DNA from: Sphagnum compactum
Taxonomy: Eukaryota
Direction of reading: 5' to 3'
Length of the DNA stretch: 64,000 bases
Assembly (NCBI GenBank): GCA_965153455.1
Contig: OZ234493.1
Coordinates: forward strand, 23,302,213-23,366,212
The position numbers were made by a program, and so were the translations under genes. Shown piece after piece: positions 8,056 to 27,673 of the stretch (position 1 is its first letter; each line of letters starts with the position of its first letter). The notes beneath the pieces are model-generated. The model saw only the letters and a program-made list of their open reading frames with translations. It was not told where the DNA came from and did not search any database.

Positions 8056-10918
8056 GCCAGGCAGAGCCATTAGACAATTATGCGATTTATTTTTATTTTT
8101 ATTTTATTTTATTTATTTATTTATTTTCATGATTTCTATTTGTTTAGAACACAAAGTGGTTTTGAAAATTCAAAGCTATATTATCTGATCAGAATTATGG
8201 GATTGCTGTTTTTTTTGTTTTTTTTTGGTGGAGAATTTTGGCTATTTTGTGGAAAGAAACTTTGAGGGAAAAAACTTTGAGACATAAAATAATAATAATA
8301 ATTTAGTGTAAAATATGTTATTTCAAAAAAAAAATTGCCACATTTATAAAACATAATCCCTTTTTTTTGTAATGTATGGTGTCCAGCACCAACAATTTTG
8401 TGGATAACTCCAAAATAATACAAAAAAGGATAATGCAAATAGGGCTCTAGTGGCAGGAAAATATTGAGAGGAAGACAGCAAAAGGAGAGAGATTATGTTG
8501 GCTTCTAGGGCAGGAAAAAAATAAGAGGTAGATAGCAAAAGGAGATTGAGTACTTTGCTGTCTACAAATAAAGGAAAGCAGCTGCCATAAGAGATTTGAA
8601 AAATCCAAAAAGCAAAATTTGTAGTTTCTTTGCCCAAGAGAAGGAATTGTCTATCTTTAGGACAGGCCACAAAATGATCCAAACATAAACACTTCTCTGC
8701 TATGAATTGATCTTAATTAAACTAGGCCCTTTTCCTATACTATGAGGACCGTAGCATGTAGGAGACGGGCCTAAGTACATGCCCTTCCGTGATTTGAGAT
8801 CTGCACTGTAAGTCTAGCATCCCAACTTCCCTTCAGGATGCTCAAATTGTGTGTCTTGTTATCCTTAGGTTTAGCATTTTCATTTGGATTGTAGAATTGG
8901 GTTAGCCTAAAGAGCATTTCAAAAGTTGCAGAGTTGCCAAATTTGAGTGCTTATGGCAAAATTTTGTTTTCTATTGTACGTTGGTACTTTAGTATACAAA
9001 TCCACCTTTGGCATCTTGTTTGTTATTCCCCATAAATTCATCTTCTTGACTTGGTACTTTTTAAGTGTTAGAATTCTTTAAAGTACATTTTCTTCTTTAG
9101 TCTCCCATTGTGGAAGGATGTCTTGACATACATCCATGTGGTGACAATTCTTGTCTCTTTGAGTTCCTCCTAGAACTCCAAGGGTTGACCCACTCGAACA
9201 GAATTCAAAAGGGTGTCATCATCTCTCTTTTTTCAAGATTTTGCTCTTAACCTGTTACAACTAGTTAGGTTTGAATTTCATGTCTTTATTTGGTCTTTAC
9301 TTGATGCAATGGACCCATTTTCTTTGTAGATGTTACTTTCTCTCTTTATTGTAATAGATTGCAATTTGCATCATGTTGATGAAGAAAGACCCTGTATATT
9401 CAAAACCCAGGGATGGGAACCCATCACTCGAACTACAAGGCAAATAAATGTCATGTCATGCTTGAGAACACATGTCATGAAAGAAAATAACAATCTGGAC
9501 ACCCCTAATACACTAATAAAATTAAAGACCATAGACATTTCCATTTTAGTGACTTAATAGAGTTTTCCTTAAAGTAATCATGTCGTCACCTTGTCTGTGG
9601 GGCCTGTTTTCATCCCTATCCATCGTTTTTTTTTTTTGTAAAAAATCATCGAAAGGCGAAAAATTATAGGTCAGTGTAACAAGCCTTTGTAAAGTCTAGG
9701 GGTAAAATCAGAAATTTTTGCCTAATGCGGTAAGTGCCAAATGGTTACATCACCACTTTACATCACAATCAAAACCCTAAATCGCTTATCACTATCACAC
9801 CGTTAACCACTATTCGTCATCGCTGCACCCTGCCAACATGAGTTTTTTGTCACCTTTGCTGCTTGTGTCCTATGTACATTGTCAACAATGATGATGCAAG
9901 AGGAGGAAGAATTCGCCAACACTATGTTTAGAAATTAATAGTACTAAAAATTTCTAGGGATTCATGATGCATTATAATGAAATTTTATGATATTAGACTT
10001 TTCAAAACATTTACAAGTGATGACTCGCCCACTGCAACGATTCTAAACCCAATAAATTCGCCAAAGTGGCTTCACCTTAGAAAAAACAAATAGCCACCTT
10101 TGTTATTTTATGTCTAAGTTGTGTGACCACATTGGCAACTACTTGGACCTTTAAAAGAAACATTGTCACTATCCCCTCTTTGAGTGAGGTCTGCAAAATA
10201 AGGAAGTTTTATATCATCTAGGTATGAAATGCTGAAAGTCAACATTTAACGCACAAGGTTCGAAGTAATTATAGTAGTTGTACATGTAGGAGTAGTGAAA
10301 ACATATGTAGCAGCAGTGGAAGCACTTGGGAAAAAGGAAAGACAGGTGAGAACCGGATCAAACTCAGTTTGGCACAAAAAGTGGTGCATTTCTGACTTCG
10401 ACACCCCCTTGAAGGCTAATGTACTTTTTTACAGGTTTCTTTAAAAATCTCATCTAGTTTTGGACCAAACTCAGGCTACTGGTGCCGTGTTGTCCAGACA
10501 TTACGAAAAACTCTAACATATTTCTTATTTCTTAACTCGTACCCAACAGTGATCATGAACAATTGTTGCATAAATACAATCAATGTGTTGTTGATCAATT
10601 ATGCAAATCTGTAAAATTTCAGATTTCAAAACGCAATGCAGAGAGGATCTCTTAACACCATCCTAACATCTCCTAACTTCCATCTCCACTTGAGCATAGT
10701 ACGTAGTAACAACAAGAAATCTATTGCGTAACTAATACTATTTTGTATGAAACAAGCATACCAGGCCAGAGTTGTCCATTTAAAGTACACTTTCCCCAGC
10801 GAGCTTCAGTCAAGACCCTTCCAAAGCATGCACTCAGGACTCAGCTCCCTCACTGTTTGTAGGTGACTGAGTAGTGCTCTTTTCAGCATCCTCCAAATTG
10901 AGCTACCGTGATATGGAT

Positions 10919-11967
10919 TCATGCATCCCAAACTTCTTTGTAGACTGTTTTGAACCTTTTGAAATATTCATTGTCCAAACTACATAGAGCCAGCACTTGC
11001 TTTCCAGAAACAACCACATCCAGTACCTGAAGTGAATCACACCACTGTGTAGCATCCACTACAGTCTAAATATGCAACCTTGATTGGAAAGGTACTTAGT
11101 ACCATGGTTCCTTCCAAGCTTTATCCCTACCCTGAGTTGGTGGCCACAAAATTGAAGATAATTGTTTAGCCTATGGTGCTCTATGTGAGTGTACAGGGGA
11201 AAATGAACTCACTTGGATGCATCATCAGATTCTCATAATAGATATCATGCAGACCTATAGAAACTCGGGCTTGACATAGAACTCTGAGCAATGCATCCAA
11301 TCTGTCATAACACACAACTAGAAGTACTTCTGAAGCCATTAGTACACTACATTCCAGCTGTCTATGGTACATGATGGCCTTCTAGAGTGCTGCACAGATT
11401 TGCATGAGAAGACCATATTGACGATCACTTTACTATCCATCATGGTTGGCCACCACCAAGCTTTCGAAGGTAAAACACTACCGCACAATATCCACTCAAC
11501 TCTCAAACAAGTTGGTTGCCGATGTCCATAACATAGGCCCAGGCACAAAATACTTAATCACAACAAAGGGCTTCCCTGGCACACAATATTACATGGTTCT
11601 AGGTTTTTCAGCATTTTCTAGAAGCTTCCTATCCATCCAAGAAGCTCAATAAACTAAAGAAGAAAAGATGTATCCAACACAATCATTTAACAACGCTTTG
11701 TGTTCATCAAAACAGAAAGACACTTCAAAAAAGAAATTTGCAAGGGTGGCCTATGAGGTAACCAATAAAACACAAAGGAGAGAGGGAGGGAAGAGAAAGA
11801 CAAATCAATTCCTTGATAGCATACAAGAGGATTTCGGACCTCCACAAAAGAACTCAAAAGTGATCTTGCAGCCTCTACTTTGGTACTGTCCAAAGAGGCT
11901 TGGCAGAAGGTCCTTCATCGTGTAAAGTAGCATCTCCACTTTAGATTGCATATCCATATATGTGCGG
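10919..11967 (-). pseudogene. 3'-terminal exons of an unidentified gene (disrupted fragment)
   Basis: Exon-like segments 11967-11840 and 11026-10919 have canonical splice sites and join in phase (..STKVEAARSLLSSFVE|VLDVVVSGKQVLALCSLDNEYFKRFKTVYKEVWDA*). The upstream exon has a stop or frameshift in that frame. Family not recognised. Confidence 0.45.
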
Positions 11968-12606
11968 CTGGGATGGAACATTGGACTTGTATGGTATGTG
12001 AAAACATAAAATTCACATTGAACTCATTGCCTACTACCTATCATGCATCTGATACACACAATTTATCTCAAGTTGCAGTTTTATGCTACATACTCCTATG
12101 TGTTTGCATAAGGAACTACACACTGGAAGATTTGTTATGGACTAGCTTGGTTTACATCACAAGCAAGTCCACAACTGTATAGATCTAGCATAACTGTCAA
12201 AAAGCAATTTCAGTTCAAATTCAAAGAGAAACTACACACCACGAATTAGAAGCACCCCTTCCTTCTCACTTAGTCACAATTGGAATCCCAGCCAACAGGA
12301 ACAATATGACATGCACTTGATACATGAGCAAGATTTAAGATATAATGATTGATCCATTTGTAGGTGCAAGAAAACATAGAAAGGCCCCCTTCACCTCAAG
12401 AAAAAAGTTATCATTCCACACAGCGCAAGAGTCAATTCATACCAACCTATCGGTGACATGCATCAATATTAATTATTGGTTGATTGCAATGCTTTCACAA
12501 AAGAAATAGAGAAAAAAAAAATGCAATCATAAGGGGGAGGAAGGCAGTTTATCCTTGCTCGTTGTTTGAAGGAAAGTCGATGTTACACTGATAACTTCGG
12601 ATTAAA

Positions 12607-12975
12607 TTGATGGCCGAAACATTTATCAAATTCTTACCCAATGAGATAGTAACAGAAATTATATTTCCTAAAATCATCCGTCATGCAGCTTTGATAAATG
12701 GAAGATATCAAACTCAGGAAAAAAGAGAGAGACTTGATGAAATATTCGTTATGAGAATGTTCAACAAATTATGGAAAGAAATTATAGATAACACGATTGA
12801 ATGGTTGGCATTCTGCCTAGCAAATGAAGAATGCCAAAAATATGAATGGAACAAAATGACATATAGTGAAATTTGCACCATTTTATCTTTTGAAAAAAAC
12901 TTTCAATTATTGAATCTGATGCACATTCAAGATTCAAAATTAAACCTAACATATTATTCAAAAAAACAAATTTGA
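12607..12975 (+). CDS. Intronless AT-rich ORF with an F-box-like N-terminal motif (probably repeat-borne or pseudogenic)
   Basis: FLPNEIVTEIIFPKI...RMFNKLWKEII resembles the F-box LP-x-E-I...V-x-K-x-W pattern. It is followed by (AATTC/GAATT)n repeats at ~13110-13175. Confidence 0.35.
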   Translation: MMAETFIKFLPNEIVTEIIFPKIIRHAALINGRYQTQEKRERLDEIFVMRMFNKLWKEIIDNTIEWLAFCLANEECQKYEWNKMTYSEICTILSFEKNFQLLNLMHIQDSKLNLTYYSKKQI

Positions 12976-13255
12976 TTACAATAAAATTATTATCTCTACA
13001 TTTAATGACATGACGGTTCCAAACTAAAATTTATTTAGCGCATTCCCAAATGAAAAGGCACTAAGATTTTGAATACATTCTCTAACAATTTGCATCCCAT
13101 TTGTCTTTGATTAAATTTGAATTCAATTCAATTCAATCTGGATTCAATTCAATTGTTGAATTGAAATTGAATTTAGATGAATTTTTCCGTTGAAATTTTC
13201 CTTTCTGAGCAATAGCAAGCACCAAGAAGTTGAAAGTTCAAGAATAATGACACAC

Positions 13256-15852
13256 CTTTCAGAGTTGCCATTGCATGATCCATGCTTTGAACAACGTCCT
13301 CGAGCAGGGGCACCCCCATGTGATAGTTGAGAGTATCCCCATACCCCTTCAAGTGATGCATCTGCAGGTCATCTGCCCACTCCAGCAACTTGATCTGTTT
13401 GTAAAACAAACAAATATTACAGTGAGTAGCTCTGTGAAGTTCCCGATGCGTCAAATACACTTTCAATCACATATGAATGTAAGCCCAACATCATTCAGTT
13501 GCCAAGATTTGACAGTCACCATTCATTTGTGTGATTTGAGCGATCCAGGGTGGACTATTTGTTGGCAAAGCCTCCAAGGATGTCCTCCATTGTGACAAGA
13601 AAGATCATGGCATAGCCCCCCATTATAAGCATGTGAAGGTATCTGAGGGAAAGTTAAAGAAAATTACTTTAGACATGGATTTCCTCTTGAGAACACTGTG
13701 ATGGATTACCCTGTACAGTGGAGTTGTCAGGTCTATTGTGAATTCCTATAAGATTCTTTAGAGGAGAACTTTTAACAACCTTCCAATTGATTTTTAGGAT
13801 TCCAGACCAAATCTAGTTTGCCACACAGCAACAGAATATGCACTGACAAAAACAACAAAAGACCAGAGTCATCCACCTAGTCCGTCTAGAAACATTTTCT
13901 TTCTCATGTCAAATTGCAGTACAAAATTGAAGGATACCTGTTGTCACACAAATCAACACCAGCAGTAACCGCCTGCAGCATCTCCTCTGAACAGATTCCC
14001 AGAAAAAACAATCAGTATTTTTACTTTGATAACCATAACTTGAAAAAACTGACCAGGATATAGTACTACAACATACAATGCTACGAAAGCATAGCAGTTG
14101 CAATAAAGGAATTCAGCCCATATTTGCAACCATGACCATGTCAAACTAAAGTACACTATGAACTAAAGATGCACAAAATTGGACATCGGAAGGTCAGTAC
14201 CTGGCATTCCCAGCCCACTAACATGGCGAGGCTTTTCCATTGGTAAGCTTGCCTTTTACATCACCAGATAGAATTTAATTGCCACTTTTTTCTAGAAGAA
14301 AAAGGCTGCTACAACAATGACATAGAAGCAGGTGACTGATGAATGAACTTAGAAAAGAAAGAAGCATGTGTGAGAGAAGTGAAGGTGGATCATATAACAA
14401 AGATAAAGAACTACAGTGATAGCTTCTAGAACAGGGCGTTGGTCCTCTGTAGCTTCACCAAGACCAAAGCCACCCAAAGAAAAACCTGCAAAACCACATG
14501 CTCTGTCACTTACTGTTTATCTCAAAGTGGTTGGCTCACAACCTCATCAGAAGACTCATTAAGAAAAAAATTCTCTTGATTTCAAGGATTTGACAACTCA
14601 TCCACACAGAATTAGCCAGTTGGGGTTCATGCACTAAAACAGAACTCAGAATGTGGTTTCACAGCTTGGCAAGTGATACAACAGTTCATGACAAGGAGCA
14701 ATATATCATGCTTAGACATTTTGGGAAATATGGAAAGGAAGAATGAAGCAGGCTTGTTCCCTTGTTGCTAATGTTATGGTAGACAAAAAACAAGTAGTGC
14801 ACCTGCTACATTGGGAGTTGCCATTTGTTGAGCAGAGCGTGTTCGCTGCTCAACACTGCTTCCTCCAACCACAACACCCAGACACCAAATGTCCTGCTTT
14901 GCCCAGATTATGAATCACATCAGTCGGCTTCAATCTACCCAAAATAGGTCATGATACAAGTCATGCAAGATAAAAGGCTCTGAAGGAGTAAAGCAAAGTA
15001 ATATGATATACAATTGACAGAGAAAGGCAATGGTCTAGCCATTGTAAGGTGCAACCAATTGACATGCGGTTTCGCTTTTCCAAGACCCATACAAGAACCT
15101 CATCAAGTAAGCTAGCCCATAAATTAGGTTTGCATGTATTGATGACTTCCATGTACTTGACAGGCCCAACCTGCAACATATTCACCCATATAGAGAGTAA
15201 GTACTTAAACAAACAGCAAGACTTGCAGAGCACAAACTTTTATGTTCCACTTCTTTGAAGCACTAAACTGTTGTGTAACTTGGGATGGTGGGACTGCAAT
15301 GCCTTCTAACCTTGAGAATCTCAACCAGTTCATCAGGTAAACCATAAGGACGAGAAACATTCTTAATAATAATTGCCTTCAAAAATCTGGTATCTGAAGG
15401 AAATAAATCTCTCAAACAAAAAAGATCTGCACCTGAAATTAATGGAGTTGGAGAGAGGGGGAAGAGATCCTCCTACGATTCAGCAACCAAAAGAGGTCTT
15501 GAAAGAGGCCCCAAACTTGGTGGTCCCCTATCTATCTGCTTCATCCATGATCAAGTCCTGCCCAACTGCGAACAATCCATGTTCAGGTAAACACAACATC
15601 TTATGTAAGCTTCCCACCTCCGCAACCACCTCTGGAAGTGGACTGTCCAAACTACGACCAGAGTGTTATGAAGACCCATCTTCAGTCTCCAGCAGTTTTG
15701 AAGTTAGCAACACAACCACAAACAACTCCTTTCAACTAATTCCAGACTGAAAAAAATTGGAAGCTTCTTATCAAAGTCAGATAAGCCAAACCCACCTCTC
15801 CAGAAGTGAAAATTCCACAAGCATGATCAACAATGTCCAACAAAGATGCCTC
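13256..15852 (-). pseudogene. Two consecutive exons of a MINPP1-like histidine acid phosphatase (multiple inositol polyphosphate phosphatase), fragment
   Basis: Exon 15852-15796 (EASLLDIVDHACGIFTSGE) and exon 13394-13256 (IKLLEWADDLQMHHLKGYGDTLNYHMGVPLLEDVVQSMDHA) join in phase 0. They match the recalled plant MINPP segment QEASLL...C.LF...E.VALLEWTDDLE...LKGYG.SLNY.MGVPLLEDV. No other MINPP exons were seen. Confidence 0.8.
13600..15651 (-). pseudogene. QTRT2: Queuine tRNA-ribosyltransferase accessory subunit 2 internal fragment (about 7 exons), pseudogene
   Basis: Exons give SPLPEVVAEVGSLHKML..TKFGASFKT (15651-15477, in-frame TAG 15528-30 and TGA 15480-82), KYMEVINTCKPNLWASLLDEV..EKRNRMSI..TLQWLDHC (15170-15012), GVVVGGSSVEQRTRSAQ, FSLGGFGLGE, SLPMEKPRHVSGLGMPEEMLQAVTAGVDL and YLHMLIMGGYA, followed by a frameshift. 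N- and C-terminal exons are absent. Confidence 0.85.
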
Positions 15853-15897
15853 CTGTGAGGACCACAAAATGTAAATAGCAGCAAGAGCACCAAATAT

Positions 15898-17215
15898 GAG
15901 CAACCCTCTGATGCTTTTTAACAGAGGGTAGCCTTTATTCTTCAGACAATAAGATTGGCCATCTAAGAGACAAAGAAAGCTTTAGAACTACAAAGCCTCA
16001 AAAACCTGTAAAATGGACTATCGATAACTCCAAACTTGGTAGTAATAGAAATATTGGAATGACCATGAGGCATACAAATCATGTTGATACCTGCATACTC
16101 TGGTTGAGAACTTTATCAAAGATATCACAGGATATACCTTGATGAATTTGCTTGACAGCTAGATCCAAGGAGTTACAAGAGAAGCCTTTAGAAGTACAAT
16201 TCAACTCACAAGATGTTTTTGGGGATATGCCACCACCAAAAGAATCTTGTTTAGGTACATAGAACTCTCAGAGTCTGGAAAGTCAGGAACAAAAAGATCG
16301 TCCACAAACCTACAAACAAGGGATAATCTATGAAGAACAACAAGACAGGTGCTTCAAGAGGTGCTTGAGAAAATTGAACTCATAGAAAAAAGATATAAAT
16401 TAGCTAAATAGACAACACAATTGTCTAGAAGAACAAATTATGTAACAACAAATCCAGCTCAGAGATTATGTCTGAAGCCTCCACAACTTTAAAGCTATGT
16501 AGAGTTTCAAACAAATTTATTTCTTCTTTGTTCTTAAGCCACAAATACCCGAAGTTCAAAGCTGTGCTTTGAACCAACAAAAACTTTAAATGATGAAGTT
16601 TAAACATCTGATTAAACACTTTATTAATCAGAACTTTCATACAATCTTTAAGATCTGTCAGGTCTATCTTAGTGTATCCAGTTGAAAAATCAAACAATTG
16701 GAACAAGAATGGAGAAGCTTTACCAACTTTTGTTCTCAAAAGAGTAAGGAATTATATCATATCCAGTACTCCTGTAGAGTCATTAAGAATCCAACTACGA
16801 ATAGAAGGAACATGAACCTTTTTGAGTTTTGACACCCAAAGGTATTTAACTGTGGGAAAAATAGCTTTGTAGAAAGAACTAAGCCACTCAGAACCTTCAG
16901 TATGGGATGTGGAACTGGCTGCACAAATAAATCTTAGTTTAATCAGATTTTTATGAAACTTCCAGACATCACAAAGAAACAGAAGAGGAGGGCCACACTT
17001 TCCACCACTAAAATTATGAGCCTTATTACAAGAATGATGAGATTTAAGAATTTCTCCTTGGGCAAGATCTGAGATCACATATGTACCAACTGGGGAATTA
17101 AACTCAAAGAAAACTGAAGAAACGTAGAGCTTTTTACAAACAAAAACACAATTATTACTATACTTATCCATGTGAGTAATAACAAAAGAACAGACAATTG
17201 AGGAATGAGAATTCA
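15898..17215 (-). mobile_element. Penelope-like retroelement RT fragment (degenerate), same family as 38600-40620
   Basis: Broken ORFs [34 protein letters not shown] and FDFSTGYTKIDL, plus thumb region to KNKGYPL. Nucleotide-colinear with the plus-strand copy at ~38770-40205. Confidence 0.85.
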
Positions 17216-17809
17216 AGACAATTAGAGAACATATTTATTTGGTAACAAACTATCCAATTGTGTGGGGTTTATATACAAACACACAGGAAGACACACTCCC
17301 AAAATTAAGGGACACCAAATTGTTCATATAGAGTTACTGACCTGAAGAAGGCGATTGCCACCATTGTCACTCATGTTGAAAAGATGTAATTGCGGAGGTT
17401 TCCTATGGAAAGACAATGATTGAAAAAGAATTCCATATCCATGTTCTTGCTCCTCATTCATACCTGCACCTTCCTCCCAATCCTTCACCCCCCACAGACC
17501 ATCACCAAATAAGTTGCATATAACAGTGAAACTTCATTATTCAGTTATATGGCTCATAAACAAGATAGACAGGATGGATGAAACGATACAAGTGAGCAAA
17601 AATACTTCCACGTTTTTCTAACCCATTTCACTTCTCATTTACATCTTGTGCATGCTAATTATCCGTAGCATGGATTAAGCATGAAATCAGAGTCAGTATG
17701 ATATAAAACGAAAACACAGCATTGCAGACTCAAACTGCAATTGTTTGGCTGCTTATGTTCATGCAACTTAGGAGAACCAATCATATAGATATAGAAAGAA
17801 GGACATTAC

Positions 17810-17997
17810 CAGCAATAAAAAGCAAGGGAAGCTTCACGTAACTCTGCCTTCCATTCCTGTAGCATCTGATGCATTTGCTCCTCCAACAATGAAACATCTT
17901 CAACCAATTCTTCCGCCGTGCTTGTTGCAATTCCGACACTATGCCTTGAAGATCATCCACCCTGTTGATTGCTCTTGCACGAAAATGTTGTGATCCT
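17810..17997 (-). pseudogene. VOZ: VOZ (vascular plant one-zinc finger) transcription factor N-terminal fragment, frameshifted
   Basis: GSQHFRARAINRVDDLQGIVSELQQAR, then after a frameshift EDVSLLEEQMHQMLQEWKAELREAS. This matches the recalled VOZ N-terminus KNRVDDLQG...ARKE...DV.LLEEQV.QMLREWK.EL.EPS. Confidence 0.8.
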
Positions 17998-18624
17998 TTG
18001 TTGGCTTATGTTTTGCAGCTGCAATCATTTCCAGTCCCCCAAAACATCACTCCCAATTCCCTGACAAAAAAGTACTCATCATATTCACATCACACAAAAC
18101 TGACTGAACATGCAGCTCCAAGCAGTGGCCAATCCACATTCTTTCCCTCATGATTTCAGAACATAATGCAAGCCTACAAGGCATCACACTACAAACAGGT
18201 ATTTTTTGAGCTTTGCAGTAGACTTTTGCCTGAAAATGAAAGCACAGTATGAAGGATAGAAAACCTTTGCTCTGATCCATTGCAACCTACAGCTATCTTA
18301 ACTAAACCAGCTCCAATCAATGAAAATTATCATCACTAAAATTAAATTTAGACAATATGTTTAGCTAAAGTTTAATTAGTCATAAAATTTACAAAATTTA
18401 ACAATTAAGTTTATCAAATAAGTTCAATCACTATGTTTAACTTATTAAATTAAACTAGTAGGTTTAACCATTAAAGTTAAATCATTAAGTTTAGCCGTTT
18501 AATTTATGCATTAGATTTAACCTAATTTTAACCACTATGTGTCACCTAGGTTTAAGTATTGTGTTTAGTGATGTGAAATAAATGTGTGAAATAAAAAAAC
18601 TTGATACAGTTGAACACCTTCGAT

Positions 18625-18681
18625 GGTGTAGTTCATTTGTAAAAACTTGGATTATCATTGTGAAAGTTTGAGTTCAATTCC
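18625..18681 (+). repeat. Degenerate tRNA-like head (Pol III A/B box-like), possible SINE remnant
   Basis: 'ggtgtagttcatttgtaaaa' (A-box-like) and 'gagttcaattcc' (B-box-like). No closed cloverleaf. Followed by (taggt)-rich low-complexity sequence. Confidence 0.35.
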
Positions 18682-19149
18682 TTATACTTCTAACTTATGT
18701 GCATGTTTAAAAACCTAAAGTAAGTAGGTTAAGGTAGTTTGGTGAAGTTTGGTTACGTTAAGTAGTTTTAGTTAGGTTAGGTTAACACCTACCTAAATGT
18801 CTTTTTTTGACCTACTTAAACCTATTTATTATCAATTTAAATTTTTTTAAGTCAAAAAATAATTTTAGTTTAGTTATAAATTTGATCCAATCAAATGATT
18901 CATTGTTTATTAGTTAAATAATTAGTCACCATGTTAGTCAAAATGAAAAGGTCCAAATTGACTACCTAGTCACATTGATAGGTCCAAATTGACAATGTGG
19001 TCTTTTTTACACCTATCATTTTGAATTTTTTTTATTAGAAAAACCAATAAAAAAAACCATGAATTAATAGTGAATGGATTCTTTTTCAAGTTCAAGCACC
19101 TTTTCAAACTCTAATTTTTTTTCAAATGATGATGAAATCTTATATGACA

Positions 19150-19670
19150 TGGATGAAAAGGATATAATGTTCTTTTAATATGAATTTGTGGCATGTAATG
19201 TTGGAAACTTCTTCAACCCACATGAGATGGATGAGGGGAGTGGGCTATTAATGGACCCAATTGTGGATGTTCGATATGTGTTGATAACAATGCAAGCCAC
19301 CCCAATATTGTTCAAGAATTTGACAAACTTTATTGCCACAAAATCTAAAAAACTTCCATTCTTTGCAGTGCCTACCATCACCTCCCCTGTTAAGTCCATA
19401 AATGAAGCATGTATTGTTTTTGGAACACCTTAAAAGTTAAGCCCTTAACACAAGTATTTTGTTCATAAAACATGACAACATCACAAAGTATGATTCTTTC
19501 ATGTGAAATTGGTCCTAAAAAATTGTGTTTGATGATTTTTTTTTGATTCATGATGTGTTAATGTTTCAATTGTGAATGAGATCTACTCAACTATGGCCCA
19601 AAAGCGAGCTACCTTGGGCACTCATTTGTAGGAATTATTCAAATGCATAAGGTTCATTAAGGGAACCTTG
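19150..19670 (+). mobile_element. Degenerate DNA transposase remnant, probably PIF/Harbinger-like
   Basis: Broken frames LFKNLTNF..VPTI, KLSP, KHDNITKYDSFM*NWS and a GFI(D)GT-like 'ggttcattaagggaacc' near 19650. Many stops. Confidence 0.4.
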
Positions 19671-20380: not shown

Positions 20381-22089
20381 TTCATTACAAGTCATGGATG
20401 AACATTCAAATGAATGAATTTTATGACATTGGCATTTGTGACACCTTTGGCTGAGATCCAAAAACCATAAAATGACAAGGTTCATCGATCATAATTCAAT
20501 GAATAGAAAAAAAACATATGCATTGTGAACAACACAATTATTTTTGACCGCACGTGCTTATTCATTTATATAATTAATAAGGTCCCCAAGTTATTACCAT
20601 GATGTATACATCATTTAACATTTTGCATTTAAAAAGATTGGTGCCAATATTTTATTCATGAAGGTGATTACTTTAAGCTTCTACCAGTGGATCCAAGGTA
20701 TTTGAAAAAATAAATGTTCATGACAAAGGATCGGGAGATGGTAATTAGTTTCCAGTTCAAATTTAAATGCCATACAAACATACAACAAAATATATGTCAA
20801 ATATTAAGTGTAAGTGGAGTGGGGTACTAGTGGCTTGAAAAGAAAACAAAAGAGACTGAGTCATCAAAAGATTCAATAGCACAAAACCAAAATTCAACCA
20901 TCTTTTCCAACATGTTACCTTACCCTATTAATTTCTTACATAGGAGGAAAAGGGACCTCACATATGAGGTGATTGATGACCATCTTCCTAATCATCACTA
21001 TTAAAAATCTAGGTTTTTTATGCCTCTAGTATCATTATTACAATGACATATGTGATTGTGCATGTTGTCCAACATGACAGAAGGAGGTATTTTTTGTTTG
21101 TTTTGTCCCCACCCCAAAAGGAACAATGTCTAATTTAACTCTACTCATTTTCCATTCTAGTCAAAACATTCCTATTAATATGTGGACTACTCAATGCCCA
21201 TGTGGAATAGTGGTATCAAGTAGTGTGACTAATTTTAGTCACATCAATTAATTACATGTTTAAGCAACTACATGTTCTAACTTGTGCCATAAATTCATCT
21301 TTTAATTATTTTTGAATTGTTTTCAAGTTGGAAATCCTCATGTGCGTTGTTCTTATGTTCATGGCTATATATCCATCTTTGCAACTAAAAGTGCATCCTA
21401 GATCTTAGAACTCACTTAAACGTAGGATGTTGTTTGCAAGGCTCTTGGGAAATGGAGCTACAACATTTCCACTTTTGTTATTGGCTTGTCAATGGGGCCT
21501 AGCCTAGAACTTGGCAAAATAGATAGCCTACTATCATGATACTTATGTAGTTTTGGCACAAATGATTTCTTTTTCATTTTGCCAATTTTCCCAGAAAAAA
21601 TAAGACTTTATGTCAAAAACTTTGAAATTTCAATCAACATGTAATCAGTGTAGCCAAAGTTACACCCATGAGATGTCCAAAAATGTAATATAAATGTGAT
21701 CAATCTAAGCAAAAAAACAAAATGAAACTTGTGAGATATCTAATGATTTTATTTTATTTTATTATATTCCAAATTTTTCAAAATCTAAAACCTGAGAGGC
21801 AAATCAAAAATTTAAAATTATATTAATTATTTGGCACATTAATGTTGAATTTCCCCACTTTAGTTTTCAAAACACGTTTTTTTAATACAACTATGATATT
21901 GATTCTCAAGCATTATAACAAGACCCCTATGCACAAGGACATTGGATGATATCACACATGGACAAAACAACATGGTTGTTGAACAAATAATTACTAGTGG
22001 TAACCCGTGCCTGCAAGGCACGACACGGCACTGGGAAAAAACTGGGAGTCCAAAGGAGACCCCAAAGAACCCCATACTCACAAGAAAAA

Positions 22090-25000
22090 TCACTGCAGCA
22101 CTTCACGGTAGACCACATTACTGGTATAAACGCTAGCAAGGGCCCCATTCAGAGCCGCCCTGCTGCCACCCCGGACCAGCACCCAGACGCCCCGCCGTGA
22201 GCCGCACCGAGAGAAAGCCACATAAAGCTGCCCGTGGCAAAAAACAGGCTTGGGCAGGTACACCCCCACTGTCTGCAGTGTCTGCCCCTGGGCCTTGTTG
22301 ATAGTCATGGCAAATGCAGGCCGCAACGGGAACTGCCGTCGGCGGAGAGTAAAAGGCATCCTCTCCGTGTCAAAGGGAATGATGCTGAGGCGGGGAATGA
22401 AAACGCGCCTGCCCTTGTCCGGTCCTGTGGCAATCTCAGCATCAATTATGTGCTGCATCAGTTTGACCACAATAAGCCGAGTGCCATTTGCAAGGCCACC
22501 CGGCATATTCCGCAGCAAAATCACGGGGCAGCCTTCCTGCAAGGTCAAAGTGTGGGGTGGCACCCCTGACATGCTGAGGGAGTTTAGAAACTCGGTGGGG
22601 TAAACTCCTCTCTGTTCGCCTTGCACAACAGAATTAGCGCTGTAGTACATGCGGCGCTGTGCTGGTGTGCCGTCAGGTGTGGTGAGGTCAAACCGATTCA
22701 TGATGGCGGTGTTGATGCTGTCAACGTCCTCGTTCAAAGGAGTTAAAATGGCCCTTTGGATGATGTGCTCATTGCGTGACTGCGAGTCTGTGAAGAGGCC
22801 AAGGTCGCCGTAAACTTCATCCACCAAGTTATCAATGGTGTCACCTTGGCAACACATGTCTTCTGGGATCAAAACAGCCTCCTCCCCGACCTCAGGAGAG
22901 ACTTGTTCTGTGCCCTCCCCAATGCGCTGCAAGTAGTCTGCCCAAGCTTGTTGTTGCTGGGCATCGGCTGCGGCGTTGGCTCCGCCTTGTGCTAAAAGCC
23001 TTTGAACACGCATGTTTTCATGCAGGTGACACACTTTAACACGGTGCCAAAGGACTGCGGACCTCTTGAAACTGGCATCCACAATCTGGCCCGGGGAACC
23101 ACAGGCAATATCTGCCTAAAATCACCTCCCATGACAACAACCTTGCCCCCAAAAAGCATGTCCTTTAAGGCAGGGTCAACAGCACCCATAACATGCTGGA
23201 GCGTGCGGTTCACAGCCTCAAACACATGCTTGTGGGCCATGGGTGCCTCATCCCACACAATGAGGCGTGCAGCCCGAATCAAGGCCGCTTGTGGACTGTT
23301 CAGGGGAACATAGCAAGCAGAGGAGTCACAAAGGCCTGCTACAGGAATTTTGAAACGTGAGTGAGCTGTGCAACCGCCCTCCAAAAGCAGGGCTGCAATG
23401 CCAGAAGATGCCATCGACAACACTATGTCACCAGTAGAGCGCACCCTGCTGAGTAGGCACCCGTAGAGGAAAGTCTTGCCAGCCCCTCCCAACCCATCAA
23501 CAAAAAAGGTTTTGTCCAGCGGCTTGGGGTCATGGACCGCGTCAATGACATTGTCATAAATGGAGCGCTGGTGCTGATTTAGCAAAGGCACATCCCGAGA
23601 AAGCTGCTGAGCTTGCCGTGTCACATTGTACCTGGCCCGCTCTTCGGATACAGCGACGTCCCCCGAGGCAGCCAGCTGTGCAGGGATAGGCAGCTCAAAA
23701 TCCTCTAGGGTTTTCCCCCCTTGGGCCTGCAGCAGCAGCTCCACTTCCCGCAAGCCCTGGTCAAGGATGGCCTGGTCCAGCTGCCGGTTGGGCGTTACCT
23801 GCACGACGCAACGGGGGCGGGAGGGGGGGTTATAATCCAGAAGGGCACATTTATTCATGCTTACAACTTGCAAGGAAATCGACCATTCAATAGAGAAGTT
23901 TCCAGGCAGCAGTTCAAAGAAGACAACAGAGCACAACTTATACCATCACAACCCAACGAAAGGGAGGCTTGCAATATACACTTCCTTTGTGAAGGCCTTT
24001 TCGCCACTCACCTGGCGTGTTTGGTGCAAGAAATCCTCTGTAAGGGCTCCCTTATGCCTGTCCCACAGCCGCCCAGGATTGGTGACGTTGTTGAAAATCA
24101 GCAAGCTGGCAAAAAGCTGCCGCAAGCTTCTCGGCAATTGCACCCCAGCAGCTTCTGAAAGGCACTAGTCTCATTCAGTATCATCTTGCAGCAAGCCATG
24201 TGCAAGGCATGCAGCTTTAAAAGTGGGGTGCACAACTGTGGTAGGCATGTGAGGCCGGTGGGTAGTTCTAAGGTCCTCAAAGCATGTGGCCCCTACAATG
24301 TGGGTAAGCAAAATTCGCAGATAATACCGCTCGCCCTCTGAGGGTTGCACAAAGTACATGCGCCCCACAGTTCCTAATGTGACATGATTGTTTCGGCCTG
24401 CACCCCGTCGCCCCGTTGCCCTTTTTCGGAGGTGCCACGCCTTTTTGGATTTGCTCCACACAGCGATTTCGGGATAATCAGGGTATATTGTGGTCAGCGC
24501 AACAGGGAGTGGCGGTGCAGGGTCGTTGTTGTTGCAAGCCAAAGTGGCTGCAGCCGCGTATTCAGATTTGGCCTTTTGGTTGAAGTCACACCACCTAGTC
24601 AAAGTGGTGGAGTTGTTGCGCATCATGGCTTCCCCAACCGTGGTCCCCTCAAGAAAGTAAGTGGTCTGCTCATTAGGTAGATGAACAGCCAAGCGGTAAA
24701 CATTGGGGTGCATGTCGTGCAAGTCAAAGGCAAAAAACCGATGGCAAGCTTCGCTGGCACTGACATACCGCCCATCGAGGTAATTTTGGACTTCATCCTG
24801 GGCGGCAAGCACATTGTTCCCATCGGCCTCACCTGTAGCCGCCTGAGGCGCTACAGCCGGCAAAACCCCAGCTTCCGGCTGCACCACTGCCAAAACACGG
24901 TCGTGACCCTTGTAAACATACTTGTAGAGGTATTTCATAGCTGTGATGGAGCTGCAGACCTCAACATTGATGTGGCACTAGTACCGCATGGTCAGGTAGG

Positions 25001-27340
25001 GGTTATACGGGACGACCCAACGGTTGTCAAAAACAAAGCCCGAGCTGCAAGGGGGAGGGGGCAGCAAGTTGTTAGTCAAGGGGAAGCATCTGGTTTTAAG
25101 CTGGTTTGGTCTTAGACACAAACACTTATGGTCAGGTGCACATGACAACGACTCACTTGCCAAATTTCCAACAGCTGCACTTACGTGGGGTGGGTGAAGG
25201 TCCTGCCGTCGTCTCGTCGCCGGTAGGTTGGGTAGCTGCCGGTGGAGTCCTCAGTTTGGGGCTGGAAAGTCTTGGGATAACCCTTGCTACAAGCCCCATT
25301 CACCATGCAAGCACATGAGGGATGTAAGGCCCCACAGGGCCCATGCAACATGCGAGATGTCACAATGTTATAAAGCTCGGGGTGGGTGGATTTGTCTTGA
25401 AGTTCAGCACACACGATCGGGTCATAATCGCTGCTGTCACGCGGCTTGTCTTGGCTGCATAGAATGATCAAAATGTGACCGTGCGGCAAGCCCCGCTTCT
25501 GCCATTCTACAACATGGATGTCGGCCACCGCAGTGCCCAAAACACCATTCTGCAAAAGGTCTTTGAGGAGGGCATTGAGCTTCATCTTGAACACCCTGGA
25601 TGTCAAGTCAGGGCGACCGCTGGCTTCCTCTGAAGGCCTCAGCTCATGCAGGATCTCTGTCCAATTTGGGTTGCACATCATGGTTATGAATAGGTCAGGT
25701 TTCCCAAACTTTCTGACCAAGGCCATGGAATCCTGGTAGAGCTGGTTCATGTCACGGGGGCTACCAGCAAAAGTGGCTGGAAGGACCACCATGCGCCCAA
25801 AGTTGGTGCTATTAACCCCGTCTTGCTGCATGGCATCTACCATTCCTTTATATTGGTCAGCACGCAGGGTGGTCTGGTTGAGGCGCACCCACCGCAGCCG
25901 CTGGCCCTCAACCTTGGAGTACTGGTCAACCACCCACTCTTGATATAGCCTATTGCCATAAGTGAACGTGCTGTTGGTGGGAGGGTTGCGATCATGCATG
26001 AAGTAAGCCGCGTATTCCCTGGCAGTAACCTTGCGAGCGATGCGCCCTGCGGCAGCTCTTCTGTTTTGGCCCTTGCCCCTGCCCCTACCCCCACCCTACC
26101 TCCACCACGCCCGGGGTCCACTGCCGACTCCGCATCAGGCTGTTGTTCATCTTCAGATGGCTGCTGTTGCTCGTCCTCAGAACTTAGCCCATCCACAACC
26201 GCAGGGGTAGCGTCAGTAATATTTGGGTGCCAGCCGGGCTCTCCGTGTGGGTGGAACAGGACAAAATGCAAAGGGTCATAAGCACAGTGGGCATCACTAA
26301 TCCTCCATAACCCCCCACCCTTAGCCCGCACCCTGATGTCTCGTGGATTGCTATCACCATCGCCTGTGAGCAGGCACAAAAGGGAAGATAAATTAAGCAC
26401 AGCCGGGACAATTGCTTGCATGATGGAAGGAACGTGTTGTCGAGGAACGTAACAATTAGGACGGCCGGCACCATAAAAAATAGCACAAAATGGGGCACCA
26501 AAAAGCAGCCATGCAGCCACCCCATTCACTCACCAGGCATTAGGCCGGCCACCTAGCTGGATGTGGGGGCGTTGTATGTGCTTGCGAAAAGATACGGTGG
26601 CAGCGGGGAGGCGTGCACCAGGGGTAGGCTCAGAAGTGAGCAGGTCTCGCAATGGTTGAGGAGGAGGAATGGGGAAGAGGGCCTCACAGCTACAAGATCT
26701 GCCTTTAGCACAGTAAAGGTCTGCGTGTCCTCGGGAAGCCTCATCAGGCCAAATCATAGCTCGGCAATGCTGGCACTCGGCTATCCTACCCCCTATGTCA
26801 AGCACCGGAATACTGGCCTCATCAAATTCTGAAAGGGGGACGCAGGCTGTTGTGTGCAAATCTCGCTCACCCCGCGCCTGTCGGTGGCGCTCGCGGTTGT
26901 GGTCCCGCTGCTGCTGGCGCTACTGGTTCCGCTCCTGGTCTGTCAGTCGAGCACGGGCCTCTGCGTGCTGCTCGCGATTGCGGTCGCGTTGCTGCTCCCG
27001 CGCCACGTCGGTCAGCCGGGCACGGGCCTCTGCGTTCTGCTCGCGGTTGCAGTCGAGCTGCTGCTTTCGCTCCTGGTCTGTCAGCCGGGCACGGGCCTCT
27101 GCGTTCTGCTCGCGGTGGCGGTCGCGCTGCTGCTTCCACTCTTGGTCGGTCAGCCAGGCACGGGCCTCTGCGTGCTGCTCGCGGTTGCGGTCGCGCTGCT
27201 GCTTTCGCTCCAGGTCCGTCAGCCGGGCATGGGCCTCTGCGTTCAACTCGCGGTGGCGGTCGCGCTGCTCTTTCCGCTCCTGGTCGGTCAGCCGGGCACG
27301 GGGCTCTGCGTGTTGGTTGCGCTGCTACTGCCGGGATACA
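22090..27340 (-). pseudogene. Helitron RepHel (HUH Rep endonuclease + Pif1-family helicase), disrupted
   Basis: Zn-finger-like CQHCRA. HUH motif EWQKRGLPHGHIL. Catalytic Tyr motif KYLYKYVYKGHDR. Helicase motifs GLGGAGKTF, VWDEAPM, GGDFRQILPVV, RRQFPLRPAFAMTINKAQGQTL and HGQLYVAFSR. Introns 26533-26364, 25184-25045 and 24011-23799. Stops at 26553, 24978, 24171 and 24165; frameshift near 23085. Confidence 0.95.
26900..27310 (-). repeat. 69 bp coding tandem repeat (~6 copies, 23 aa unit) in the RepHel N-terminus
   Basis: A 'gcacgggcctctgcg'-like motif at 26951, 27020, 27089, 27158, 27227 and 27296. Unit TDQERKQQRDRNREQNAEARARL. Confidence 0.9.
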
Positions 27341-27526
27341 CCTGACCTTCCTCTTGATACATTTTCTGGCCTAAGCTGCATAAGTTTACAATTCAGAAGG
27401 CATCTAGTTCAGCATAGTAAAAAGCTGATTCAGTTTCCTATCTTAAGGCTTGTATTTTGTACTCATTGGGTTGGTGCGTCGGTGAAAGTTTGCTATGTAG
27501 TAGCCACTTCTTAGGCTGTTTTATTG

Positions 27527-27673
27527 TTGTTGGAACAACACAAAAAGTAATGATATTGAGCACTGCAGACCATTATAGTATTGGAAAACTTAGACTTTGT
27601 TGTTAGAACAGCACAAAAAGTAATGATATTGAACACTGCAAACCATTATAGTATTGGAAAACTTAGACTTTGA
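27527..27673. repeat. ~73 bp tandem duplication inside the Helitron 5' region
   Basis: 'aaaagtaatgatattga.cactgca.accattatagtattggaaaacttagactttg' occurs twice. Confidence 0.85.

What the first reader, a model, noticed from the sequence alone, without database searches (positions are those of the whole stretch)
13256..15852. QTRT2 pseudogene block nested between two consecutive MINPP exons
Seen: exons 15852-15796 and 13394-13256 are adjacent, phase-matched and stop-free MINPP exons, yet ~2 kb of QTRT2 exons and introns sits between them on the same strand. Inference: one captured gene piece was inserted into another, which implies ordered capture or template switch-and-return rather than end-to-end concatenation. 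The MINPP exons could still splice across the block.
Basis: partly seen in the sequence, partly recalled or inferred. Interest (0 to 1): 0.72.

Follow-up and report, generated by a model that had tools for sequence, protein, structure and literature searches.

The report
QTRT2 gene piece inside MINPP fragment
In a peat-moss genome a dead 2.2-kb copy of part of one gene (QTRT2) sits inside the intron of a dead copy of two exons of another gene (MINPP); the patchwork is real, old, still transcribed and oddly spliced, but it is an ordinary kind of plant gene-fragment shuffling.

Summary
Window 15852-15796 and 13394-13256 (minus strand) are MINPP exons that are neighbours in the intact Sphagnum gene, where a 241-nt intron separates them. 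Between them lies a 2233-nt piece of QTRT2 on the same strand: seven exon pieces (residues about 66-292 of 400) with their introns and two in-frame stops.

On the MINPP side the breakpoints are exact. 46 nt and 122 nt of the parental intron remain, 73 nt are lost, and 41 nt at the distal junction have no source I could find.

The intact MINPP gene has no such nesting (5 of 5 parental loci). Independent metagenome contigs carry the same junctions at about 94% identity. A second locus holds the same MINPP fragment uninterrupted, which favours insertion in steps.

RNA reads show minus-strand transcription. The exon A donor is spliced to a cryptic acceptor inside QTRT2 (51 reads), not to exon B, and a stop follows after 4 codons.

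The carrier is unresolved. The neighbouring RepHel Helitron ends at 21994 and is absent from the related contigs.

Earlier notes of this scan describe Helitron-borne gene-fragment mosaics elsewhere in this genome. Verdict: new member of a known kind, low to moderate interest.

The parts
15898..17197 (-). Block X. A fragment of a high-copy ORF family that looks reverse-transcriptase-like, lying directly upstream (minus sense) of the MINPP piece. An inverted second copy lies at 38853-40170.
   Evidence: Self-blastn and alignment of the two copies, 80-84% identity. DNA contig depth 600-3600 against about 25-50 for single-copy parts. 18 related proteins, most unnamed. Atlas leads to RT and HTH_animal clusters. 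No Pfam hit.
15750..15894 (-). MINPP piece 2: 42 nt of the upstream parental intron, exon A, and the first 46 nt of the parental A/B intron.
   Evidence: 94% identity to L008 9733-9877. The same piece is in L003, L004 and L005.
15796..15852 (-). MINPP exon A (E269-E287). Its GT donor at 15795 is used in RNA.
   Evidence: tblastn. Joint 15796 to 15565 with 51 reads. Splice-site letters.
13517..15749 (-). QTRT2 block of 2233 nt. It replaces 73 nt of the MINPP intron and holds seven exon pieces, their introns, and about 96 nt of the intron ahead of the first piece.
   Evidence: tblastn with P0032. MINPP homology stops at 15750 and resumes at 13516. Contigs of a DNA run, taken as parental (inferred), match 15262-15728 and 13558-13996 at about 91-92%.
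15477..15653 (-). QTRT2 exon piece 1 (residues about 66-123) with two in-frame stops. It contains the cryptic acceptor at 15565 that MINPP exon A splices to. The transcripts use another donor at about 15433.
   Evidence: Loose ends at 15651 in 36 reads read on into the preceding parental exon.
15015..15170 (-). QTRT2 exon piece 2 (residues 124-175).
   Evidence: 86.5% amino-acid identity to P0032. Weak Pfam TGT hit, E 0.0065. Joint into 15168-15170.
14803..14893 (-). QTRT2 exon piece 3 (residues 177-207).
   Evidence: Joint 14801 to 14483 with 99 reads; the cut may lie 2 places on.
14415..14485 (-). QTRT2 exon piece 4 (residues about 208-230).
   Evidence: Read by eye in ORF 14349-14516 against P0032. 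The acceptor is fixed by the joint. The 3' limit is approximate.
14202..14252 (-). QTRT2 exon piece 5 (residues 231-247).
   Evidence: Joint 14201 to 13986 with 43+1 reads.
13938..13986 (-). QTRT2 exon piece 6 (residues 248-264).
   Evidence: Joints on both sides.
13558..13642 (-). QTRT2 exon piece 7 (residues 265-292). QTRT2 likeness ends at 13558.
   Evidence: 29 RNA reads leave the window at 13558 and read on as the next QTRT2 residues (my translation of the consensus). A 4803-nt DNA contig also stops matching at 13558.
13517..13557 (-). 41 nt of unassigned filler between the end of QTRT2 likeness and the return to the MINPP intron.
   Evidence: Shared by L003, L004, L005 and L014, and its last 12 nt by L011. 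No other source in the window or the 17 loci.
13240..13516 (-). MINPP piece 3: the last 122 nt of the parental A/B intron, exon B, and 16 nt of the next intron.
   Evidence: 92% identity to L008 9951-10227. Present in 16 of the 17 loci, partly in L001, L002 and L016; L017 gave no DNA hit at the threshold used.
13256..13394 (-). MINPP exon B (I288-K333 plus one base).
   Evidence: tblastn, 87.5% identity, E 3e-22. 91% identity to S. balticum MINPP.
21994..27400 (-). Context only: a RepHel Helitron with a canonical 3' end (hairpin, then CTAG at 21997-21994, then T). It is not the carrier of the mosaic. The 5' limit is approximate.
   Evidence: Pfam Helitron_like_N 8e-57 and PIF1 1.3e-54. 3' end and fall in G+C. 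The whole stretch 17701-36678 is absent from L003 and L004, and L005 shares their upstream sequence at the 17700 breakpoint.

Best explanation
A roughly 0.6-kb piece of the Sphagnum MINPP gene (exons 6 and 7 by my count, with intron between and around them) was first copied as DNA to another place, where it decayed. Later this dead copy broke inside its intron. The break was mended by copying in 2.2 kb of the unlinked QTRT2 gene, from an intron to the end of the piece for residue 292, in the same orientation. 73 nt of target were lost and 41 nt of unassigned filler were added. This is the signature of templated ('filler') break repair, or of the step-by-step acquisition seen in gene-carrying transposons. 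It is not the signature of a transposon inserting with its own ends.

The RT-like block X was joined on the upstream side in the same manner. The result is one part of a low-copy, co-oriented patchwork of gene pieces at about 10.7-17.7 kb.

The patchwork is transcribed from the minus strand. The MINPP exon A donor is spliced to a cryptic acceptor inside QTRT2, the QTRT2 introns are removed, and the RNA has no long reading frame. It is an expressed chimeric pseudogene.

Shown: the anatomy, the MINPP-side breakpoints, the absence of nesting in the parent, the presence of the same junctions in other Sphagnum DNA, transcription and the splice joints.
Inferred: the order of events, the repair mechanism, and that no transposon carried it.
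For: Anatomy and breakpoints. Of the 241-nt parental intron, 46 nt and 122 nt are kept and 73 nt are replaced by 2233 nt.

DNA-level copy: the QTRT2 introns are present, and 4 of them are removed from the RNA at GT..AG sites.

The parent lacks the nesting: 5 of 5 parental loci, L006-L010.

Not an assembly error, and old. L003 and L004 carry both junctions in order at 94.5% identity over 7 kb. L005 carries them with an inversion. L014 and L011 carry the distal junction. Organism A DNA contigs laid almost without differences cover 12849-13374 and 13451-13996; none of the listed pieces spans either junction.

No transposon ends or target duplication at the block's edges; there is a 73-nt target loss instead.

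Order of events. L012, L013 and L015 hold the same MINPP fragment uninterrupted (L008 9552-10190, 85%) at another locus. They share 5 differences from the parents with the mosaic copies, 4 of them transversions, and both that could be polarised with L016 are derived. The X|MINPP junction has a 6-nt overlap (TGCTCA) with the L012-like version of the fragment but not with the parental version.

Low copy number: about one own contig plus one contig taken as parental over 13.5-14.0 kb in the DNA run.

Transcription: in the laid bins from 10654 upward the first-mate-on-plus depth is 4.7-108 and the opposite depth 0-2.9. 773 of 2108 laid reads are at least 99% alike.

Chimeric splice 15796 to 15565: 51 reads in X22, and one contig in each of X15 and X16. 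A stop follows after 4 codons.

That break repair with copied filler DNA moves genes and gene pieces in plants is stated, citing Wicker et al. 2010, in PMC3445842 (passages).
Against: The order of events is weakly supported. The tree of piece 3 is unresolved, with 1 of 11 inner branches starred.

L012-type copies differ from parents and mosaic alike at 28 sites, and the mosaic differs alone at only 10. Two exon sites group parents with the mosaic when L016 is the outgroup. A clock-like reading would make the L012-type an older, separate copy.

L011 shares the distal junction yet is further from the window (about 86%) than the window is from the parent (92%). This needs unequal rates or gene conversion.

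No copy with block X plus an uninterrupted MINPP fragment was found.

I could not fetch QTRT2 parental DNA, so microhomology on that side is untested, and whether 13558 is an exon border or a break inside an exon is open.

Divergence from the parents is similar for both genes: MINPP 92-94%, QTRT2 about 91-92%. Divergence therefore does not order the events.

Co-orientation of all pieces and the many Helitron-borne mosaics noted elsewhere in this genome (unchecked notes) point towards a transposon carrier.
Confidence: 0.5

Rival explanations
1. Cargo of a Helitron or other gene-carrying transposon. The MINPP, QTRT2 and X pieces were picked up one after another inside a mobile element whose ends have since decayed or lie outside what I could recognise. 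The nesting is then a stepwise capture into the middle of earlier cargo, as described for maize Helitrons.
For: All pieces are co-oriented, keep their introns, and are read through into chimeric spliced RNA. A RepHel Helitron in the same orientation lies 4.3 kb upstream. Part of the mosaic (window 15416-12026) occurs at a second locus, L011, with other flanks, so it has been copied elsewhere. Insertion of a new gene fragment into the middle of an older Helitron is reported for maize (PMC3288121, passages). Helitron-like elements are reported in Sphagnum magellanicum (PMC11417382, passages). Earlier notes of this scan describe Helitron-borne mosaics in this genome (unchecked).
Against: The RepHel element has its own canonical 3' end at 21994, so the mosaic lies outside it. 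L003 and L004 carry the mosaic but lack 17701-36678, and L005 shares their sequence at the 17700 breakpoint. A scan for a G+C-rich hairpin followed by CTRR-T found 2 sites in the whole window, 21994(-) and 58124(+), and none on the minus strand between 7 and 17.7 kb. The last 18 nt of the RepHel element occur once in the window (up to 3 mismatches) and in 0 of 17 loci (exact matches only). The ends of the L011 copy show no Helitron-like termini. Copy number is low.
Confidence: 0.28
2. One complex event. While a single break was being mended, the copying strand moved from the MINPP gene to QTRT2 and back to MINPP 73 nt further on (switch-and-return). The nesting would then never have existed as separate steps.
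For: The return point lies in the same parental intron, in the same orientation, only 73 nt downstream of the leaving point. Divergence of both genes' pieces from their parents is similar. In L003 a third MINPP piece (L008 9620-9693) lies in line 4 kb upstream, leaving a 39-nt gap. The MINPP template therefore looks as if it was left and rejoined more than once.
Against: An uninterrupted copy of the same fragment exists elsewhere and shares 5 differences from the parents with the mosaic. The X|MINPP junction overlaps the derived, L012-like version of the fragment, which suggests the fragment had already drifted from the parent when it was joined. These points are suggestive only.
Confidence: 0.18
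3. The QTRT2 block is a transposon of its own that jumped into the MINPP intron, or the nesting is an assembly error.
For: None found.
Against: The block's ends show no inverted or Helitron-like termini and no target duplication, and 73 nt of target are missing. The same junctions stand in independently assembled metagenome contigs: L003, L004 and L005 for both, L014 and L011 for the distal one. RNA reads and metatranscriptome contigs join MINPP exon A to the QTRT2 block.
Confidence: 0.02

Closest known systems
Stepwise gene-fragment capture in maize Helitrons (Dong et al. 2011, PMC3288121; passages read)
   Same: Intron-bearing pieces of unlinked genes lie in one orientation. A later piece sits in the middle of earlier content. 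Related copies exist with and without the later piece. That Helitron-borne pieces are transcribed into chimeric spliced RNA I recall from Barbaglia et al. 2012, which I saw only as a reference.
   Different: No Helitron ends bound this mosaic. It is low-copy. The one Helitron nearby ends before it and is missing from the related contigs.
Gene movement by break repair with copied filler DNA (synthesis-dependent strand annealing; Wicker et al. 2010, as described in PMC3445842, passages; the paper itself was not held)
   Same: Kilobase-sized unlinked genomic DNA is copied into a break. No transposon ends or target duplication are present, sequence is lost at the target, and a short stretch of unassigned filler lies at one junction.
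   Different: In the passages I read, the break arises during transposon insertion, when target site duplications are filled. No such transposon is seen at the two QTRT2 junctions. Several pieces in one orientation are not predicted by that model.
Pack-MULEs and other Pack-type DNA transposons (named as gene-fragment carriers in PMC3445842; details recalled)
   Same: Chimeras of fragments from several genes that are often transcribed.
   Different: The only long inverted repeat here (X at 15898-17197 and 38853-40170) is a high-copy RT-like ORF family, not a transposon terminus, and the MINPP/QTRT2 part lies outside it. I did not test for a target-site duplication at its outer ends.

Membership tests
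MINPP (multiple inositol polyphosphate phosphatase, histidine phosphatase branch 2): origin of the two flanking exons | Sequence likeness to a MINPP protein and to the genomic MINPP gene, with the two exons adjacent there. | tested here: met
   P0003 is best matched in the PDB by MINPP1 chains (4.6e-11) and carries PF00328. Exon B is 87.5% identical at amino-acid level. DNA identity to L008 is 92-94%, with a 241-nt intron between the exons.
MINPP: functional gene | A complete coding sequence with the other exons, including the catalytic part. | tested here: not met
   Only residues 269-333 of 508 are present in the window. It is a fragment and not a gene.
QTRT2 (queuine tRNA-ribosyltransferase accessory subunit 2): origin of the inner block | Closer to QTRT2 than to the catalytic subunit QTRT1. 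| tested here: met
   P0032 scores 1.2e-54 against QTRT2 chains and 3.3e-34 against QTRT1. The block matches P0032 residues 66-292 at 68-87% per piece in 5 of the 6 hits; the hit 14252-14097 scores 41% overall, with its first 17 residues identical.
QTRT2: functional gene | A full open coding sequence. | tested here: not met
   Residues 1-65 and about 293-400 are absent, and the first piece has two in-frame stops.
Helitron cargo (gene fragments carried inside a Helitron) | The fragments lie between a 5' TC end and a 3' hairpin plus CTRR end of one element. | tested here: not met
   The only minus-strand 3' end is at 21994, upstream of the mosaic. There is none between 7 and 17.7 kb. The scan was strict (perfect stem of 6 or more, G+C at least 60%), so a decayed end could be missed.
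Helitron cargo | Copies at unrelated sites that share termini with an autonomous partner. | tested here: inconclusive
   The terminal 18-mer of the RepHel element occurs in 0 of 17 loci by exact match, and once in the window with up to 3 mismatches. The L011 copy has other flanks but no recognisable ends. No whole genome was available.
Processed (retro-copied) pseudogene | Introns absent, poly-A tail. | tested here: not met
   Introns of both genes are retained.
Templated break-repair insertion (filler DNA) | Copied unlinked sequence at a break, with loss of target sequence, no transposon ends and no target duplication. | tested here: met
   73 nt lost, 2233 nt gained, no terminal repeats.
Templated break-repair insertion (filler DNA) | Microhomology between donor and target at the junctions. 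| tested here: inconclusive
   A 6-nt overlap at the X|MINPP junction.

The most novel reading that the evidence does not exclude
The locus is a transposon-independent patchwork. On this reading it is a fragile spot that was mended several times by copying in pieces of unlinked genes and repeats (X, QTRT2, and perhaps others at 10.7-13.2 kb), each time with a small loss of the resident MINPP fragment. The resulting chimeric, spliced, non-coding RNA, which reuses the MINPP exon A donor, has been kept in several Sphagnum lineages because it does something, for instance acting on MINPP or QTRT2 expression through its likeness to them.
Probability: 0.1. Interest if true: 0.55.

Novelty: new member of a known kind. 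Interest (0 to 1): 0.3.

Why it matters
It is a cleanly mapped case, in a bryophyte, of one gene fragment copied into the intron of another, with several useful features:
- the parental MINPP gene is in hand;
- an uninterrupted sister copy of the fragment exists;
- there are structural variants among relatives: a form lacking the Helitron, an inversion and a large deletion;
- RNA shows that an inherited splice donor has been rewired to a new acceptor.

Such cases show how exon shuffling material arises and how quickly it becomes non-coding RNA. It does not change what is known. Gene-fragment mosaics, stepwise acquisition and their chimeric transcripts are well described in flowering plants, and other windows of this genome were already noted to hold Helitron-borne mosaics.

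Tried and rejected
- Whole-genome search: no genome is held for this window.
- Pfam on 150 long ORFs of the whole window gave the TGT hit on one QTRT2 piece (E 0.0065). Pfam on 150 short minus-strand ORFs of 7.4-22.1 kb added only His_Phos_2 (E 0.17) on exon B; the other pieces of the mosaic stayed unnamed.
- Pfam on ORFs of L012, L011, the L003-specific 2.67 kb and block X: nothing usable.
- PDB sequence search with an X-family protein: nothing.
- Source of the 41-nt filler: none in the window or the 17 loci.
- Helitron ends around the mosaic: none found.
- Ends of the L011 copy: no transposon features.
- Tree of MINPP piece 3: unresolved.
- 'QTRT2 block is its own transposon' and 'assembly artefact': rejected.
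- 'The neighbouring RepHel Helitron carries the mosaic': rejected.
- Shared amino-acid changes E to K and R to H in all fragment copies looked at first like proof of one origin. The DNA context shows a CpG at the R-to-H site, and CpG transitions recur easily (my knowledge), so I rest on the transversions instead.
- Wicker et al. 2010 (PMC2928501) is not held.
Full report
WHAT THE WINDOW IS

The window is plant-like DNA with introns. A note of this scan calls the genome a peat moss. In agreement, the best full-length match to exon B is a Sphagnum balticum protein (P0003, 91% identity).

Pfam on the 150 longest stop-to-stop ORFs shows:
- an Mlo gene at 537-4394 (minus strand);
- an XAP5 gene piece at 36977-37405 (plus strand);
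- protein-kinase pieces near 47-48 kb;
- a Helitron RepHel on the minus strand (Helitron_like_N 25184-26095, E 8e-57; PIF1 22995-23945, E 1.3e-54).

No whole genome is held for this window.

THE OBSERVATION

tblastn of P0003 (508 aa; PF00328; best PDB matches are MINPP1 chains) places residues 267-290 on 15858-15787 and residues 286-333 on 13400-13257. Exon A (15852-15796) encodes E269-E287. Exon B (13394-13256) encodes I288-K333 plus one base. They are consecutive and in phase.

The QTRT2-like protein P0032 (400 aa) is closer to solved QTRT2 chains (1.2e-54) than to QTRT1 (3.3e-34). It matches the stretch between the two exons, on the same strand, in pieces for residues 66-125, 124-175, 177-207, 231-247, 248-269 and 265-292. 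A seventh piece, residues 208-230, is visible in the ORF list. The first piece has two in-frame stops.

THE PARENT AND THE BREAKPOINTS

One scan of metagenome contigs with an alignment of exon B relatives found 235 pattern matches. Seventeen of them encode a relative, and these became loci L001-L017.

L008, L009 and L010 hold the whole MINPP gene, and L006 and L007 hold most of it. In L008 exon A ends at 9831 and exon B starts at 10073, so the intron is 241 nt with nothing nested in it.

The window matches L008 9733-9877 at 15894-15750 (94%) and L008 9951-10227 at 13516-13240 (92%). So 46 nt of the intron follow exon A, 122 nt precede exon B, and 73 nt (L008 9878-9950) are missing. In their place stand 2233 nt (15749-13517).

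The block's ends show no terminal repeats and no target duplication.

On the QTRT2 side, RNA reads and DNA contigs of the same organism give these limits:
- A 462-nt DNA contig about 91% alike reaches 15728. That is 75 nt upstream of the first exon piece, so the block starts in an intron.
- 36 RNA reads leave the window at 15651 and continue as the preceding QTRT2 exon.
- 29 RNA reads leave at 13558 and continue as the next QTRT2 residues.
- A 4803-nt DNA contig, 92% alike, also stops matching at 13558.

The last 41 nt of the block (13557-13517) match nothing else in the window or the loci. The other mosaic copies share them: L003, L004, L005 and L014 in full, L011 only the last 12 nt. I could not fetch QTRT2 genomic DNA, so microhomology at the QTRT2 junctions is untested.

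IS IT REAL, AND HOW OLD?

- L003 and L004 match window 10677-17700 at 94.5% over 7 kb and carry exon A, the QTRT2 block and exon B in the same order.
- L005 has the same parts, with the segment 10005-14663 inverted.
- L014 (a short contig) and L011 (81-86% alike, different flanks) carry the distal junction.
- L001 and L002 join window 40317 directly to 13420 with one shared base. This looks like a large deletion of a window-like arrangement.

The nesting is therefore not an assembly error. It predates about 5% of sequence divergence.

L003 and L004 also match window 36679-39851 but have 2.67 kb of unrelated sequence where the window has 17701-36678. L005 shares their upstream sequence at the 17700 breakpoint.

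THE HELITRON NEXT DOOR

The RepHel element has a textbook 3' end: a 7-bp G+C-rich hairpin, then 8 nt, then CTAG at 21997-21994, then T. G+C falls from 0.58 to 0.27 at that point.

The mosaic starts 4.3 kb further down the same strand, so it lies outside this element, and the related contigs have the mosaic without the element.

A scan of the whole window for hairpin plus CTRR-T found only this site and one at 58124 on the plus strand. The element's last 18 nt occur once in the window (up to 3 mismatches) and in none of the 17 loci (exact matches only). I could not show any transposon carrier.

Helitron-like elements are on record for Sphagnum magellanicum (PMC11417382, passages). Earlier notes of this scan describe Helitron-borne mosaics elsewhere in this genome (these are leads that I did not check). 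A decayed carrier therefore remains a serious rival.

THE SURROUNDINGS

Directly upstream of MINPP piece 2 lies block X (15898-17197). A second, inverted copy with the same limits lies at 38853-40170, at 80-84% identity.

X is high-copy: DNA contig depth is 600-3600, against about 25-50 for single-copy parts. It belongs to an ORF family that is mostly unnamed in the collection. The protein atlas places that family next to reverse-transcriptase and HTH_animal clusters (leads only). Pfam gives nothing.

The X|MINPP junction is exact. It has a 6-nt overlap (TGCTCA) with the version of the MINPP fragment seen in L012, but not with the parental version.

In L003 a third MINPP piece (L008 9620-9693, 96%) lies in line 4 kb upstream. 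In that haplotype the MINPP fragment is therefore interrupted twice, with gaps of 39 and 73 nt.

ORDER OF EVENTS

L012, L013 and L015 hold L008 9552-10190 as one uninterrupted 639-nt stretch (85%) at an unrelated locus, with no other MINPP exon detected.

I counted the sites at which parents (L008, L006), mosaic copies (window, L003, L005) and L012-type copies (L012, L015) are each uniform within their group. Of 44 such sites that vary between groups:
- 28 set the L012-type apart;
- 10 set the mosaic apart;
- 5 join the mosaic with the L012-type against the parents. Four of these are transversions, and the two that can be polarised with L016 are derived;
- 1 differs in all three groups.

Two further sites join parents and mosaic when L016 is the outgroup. 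The tree of piece 3 is unresolved.

Independent copying of nearly the same 0.6 kb of the same gene seems less likely than one origin. I therefore read the L012-type as the uninterrupted state and the QTRT2 block as a later insertion, with moderate confidence.

Divergence from the parents does not order the two genes. MINPP is at 92-94%. QTRT2 is at about 91-92%: 34 differences and 1 gap in 439 nt, and 42 differences and 7 gaps in 467 nt.

L011 is oddly distant. It is about 86% identical to both the window and the parent, yet it shares the junction. This needs unequal rates or gene conversion.

EXPRESSION

In a poly-A RNA run of the same organism label (X22, about 12% of the run read), 2108 reads were laid at 88% likeness or better. 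773 of them are at least 99% alike.

In the bins from 10654 upward, depth is almost wholly on one strand: first mate on plus 4.7-108, the opposite 0-2.9. In the usual stranded library this means a minus-strand RNA.

Canonical GT..AG joints on the minus strand:

| Joint | Reads |
|---|---|
| 15796 to 15565 | 51 |
| about 15433 to 15170 | 70 |
| about 14803 to 14485 | 99 |
| 14201 to 13986 | 44 |
| 13938 to 13642 | 63 |

The first joint links the MINPP exon A donor to a cryptic acceptor inside QTRT2 piece 1. It is also present in one contig of each of two metatranscriptome runs (X15, X16). It is out of frame with QTRT2 and meets a stop after 4 codons.

A joint from exon A to exon B appears only in X15 and X16 contigs (depth 182). 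It carries 4 letters at the junction that differ from the window and fit the parental exon B start as seen in L008. The listed row has 0 reads in X22. Forty-one weaker joints were not shown.

At diagnostic places about a quarter of X22 reads carry another letter (for example 33 of 132 at 14814 and 33 of 120 at 13276). I take these to be parental transcripts. This is an inference, because the DNA run X5 carries the other letter at some of these places.

Depth falls to 0.8 below 10654.

The locus is thus an expressed, spliced, non-coding chimeric pseudogene.

MECHANISM AND COMPARISON

The signature has four parts:
- kilobase-sized unlinked genomic DNA with its introns;
- a small loss of sequence at the target;
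- a short unassigned filler;
- no terminal repeats and no target duplication.

It fits break repair that copies a distant template. PMC3445842 describes this for plants, citing Wicker et al. 2010 (passages; the cited paper is not held).

It fits equally the stepwise gain of fragments inside Helitrons in maize, where related elements differ by one fragment inserted in the middle (PMC3288121, passages).

I put the stepwise break-repair reading, with no proven carrier, at 0.5. Transposon cargo gets 0.28, a single switch-and-return event 0.18, and other readings 0.02.

VERDICT

This is a new member of a known kind. Its points of interest are the exact parental map, the sister copy without the insert, the structural variants among relatives, and the rewired splice donor.

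Noticed in passing
window 21994-27400 (minus): A RepHel Helitron with long open frames and a canonical 3' end (7-bp hairpin, CTAG, then T). It lies in a 19-kb stretch (17701-36678) that L003 and L004 replace with 2.67 kb of unrelated sequence. I did not find the 5' end.
   Followed up: partly
window 58085-58124 (plus): A second Helitron-like 3' end (6-bp hairpin, 14 nt, CTAG, then T). It is the only other hit of the strict scan.
   Followed up: no
window 38853-40170 (plus) and 15898-17197 (minus): Two inverted copies, 80-84% alike and with the same limits, of a high-copy ORF family that looks reverse-transcriptase-like. Pfam does not recognise it. RNA reads show a 46-nt exon-like match at 16768-16813 with unlike sequence on both sides.
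   Followed up: partly
L001 1819 and L002 84 (window 40317 joined to 13420): Related contigs join two points that lie 27 kb apart in the window, with one shared base. This removes exon A, the QTRT2 block, X, the XAP5 part and the Helitron. An ORF in the protein collection (P0004) reads across this junction.
   Followed up: partly
L005 (window 10005-14663): In this contig the segment 10005-14663 is inverted relative to its flanks, which splits the QTRT2 block in an intron near 14664. It is either a real inversion variant or a contig misjoin.
   Followed up: no
L012 6770-7406, L015 5569-6205, L013 1-628: A second locus with a 639-nt MINPP fragment (intron, exon A, intact intron, exon B) and no QTRT2, 85% like the parent. 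L012 and L015 are 96% alike over 10.9 kb.
   Followed up: partly
L003 3524-3597: A 74-nt piece of the MINPP intron upstream of exon A (L008 9620-9693, 96%). It lies 4 kb upstream of the other MINPP pieces, in line with them, inside sequence the window lacks.
   Followed up: partly
L008 4650-4841 (also L009, L010): A PIF1-helicase-like fragment (43% identity to the window's Helitron helicase) about 2 kb upstream of the start of the intact MINPP gene. It may be a Helitron relic beside the parental gene.
   Followed up: no
window 34137-38500 (plus): An XAP5-type gene. Its start (my reading of ORF 34220-34588) lies in the window-specific 19 kb, while its 3' half (from 36679) is shared with L003 and L004. 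Either those contigs hold a truncated copy or the window gained the 5' half.
   Followed up: no
window 17820-17997 (minus): RNA reads match this stretch with unlike sequence on both sides (33 and 45 reads), as an exon of a gene elsewhere would. It may be a further gene piece upstream of X.
   Followed up: no
window 10856-12009 (minus): The mosaic RNA continues here with a further joint, 11212 to 10999 (16 reads, and one contig in each of X15 and X16). Depth ends near 10654. The origin of these 2.5 kb downstream of exon B is unknown.
   Followed up: no
window 19967-20368 and 26896-27378: An array of 11-nt tandem repeats, and 69-nt repeats just upstream of the Helitron's Rep-like ORFs (minus sense).
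   Followed up: no
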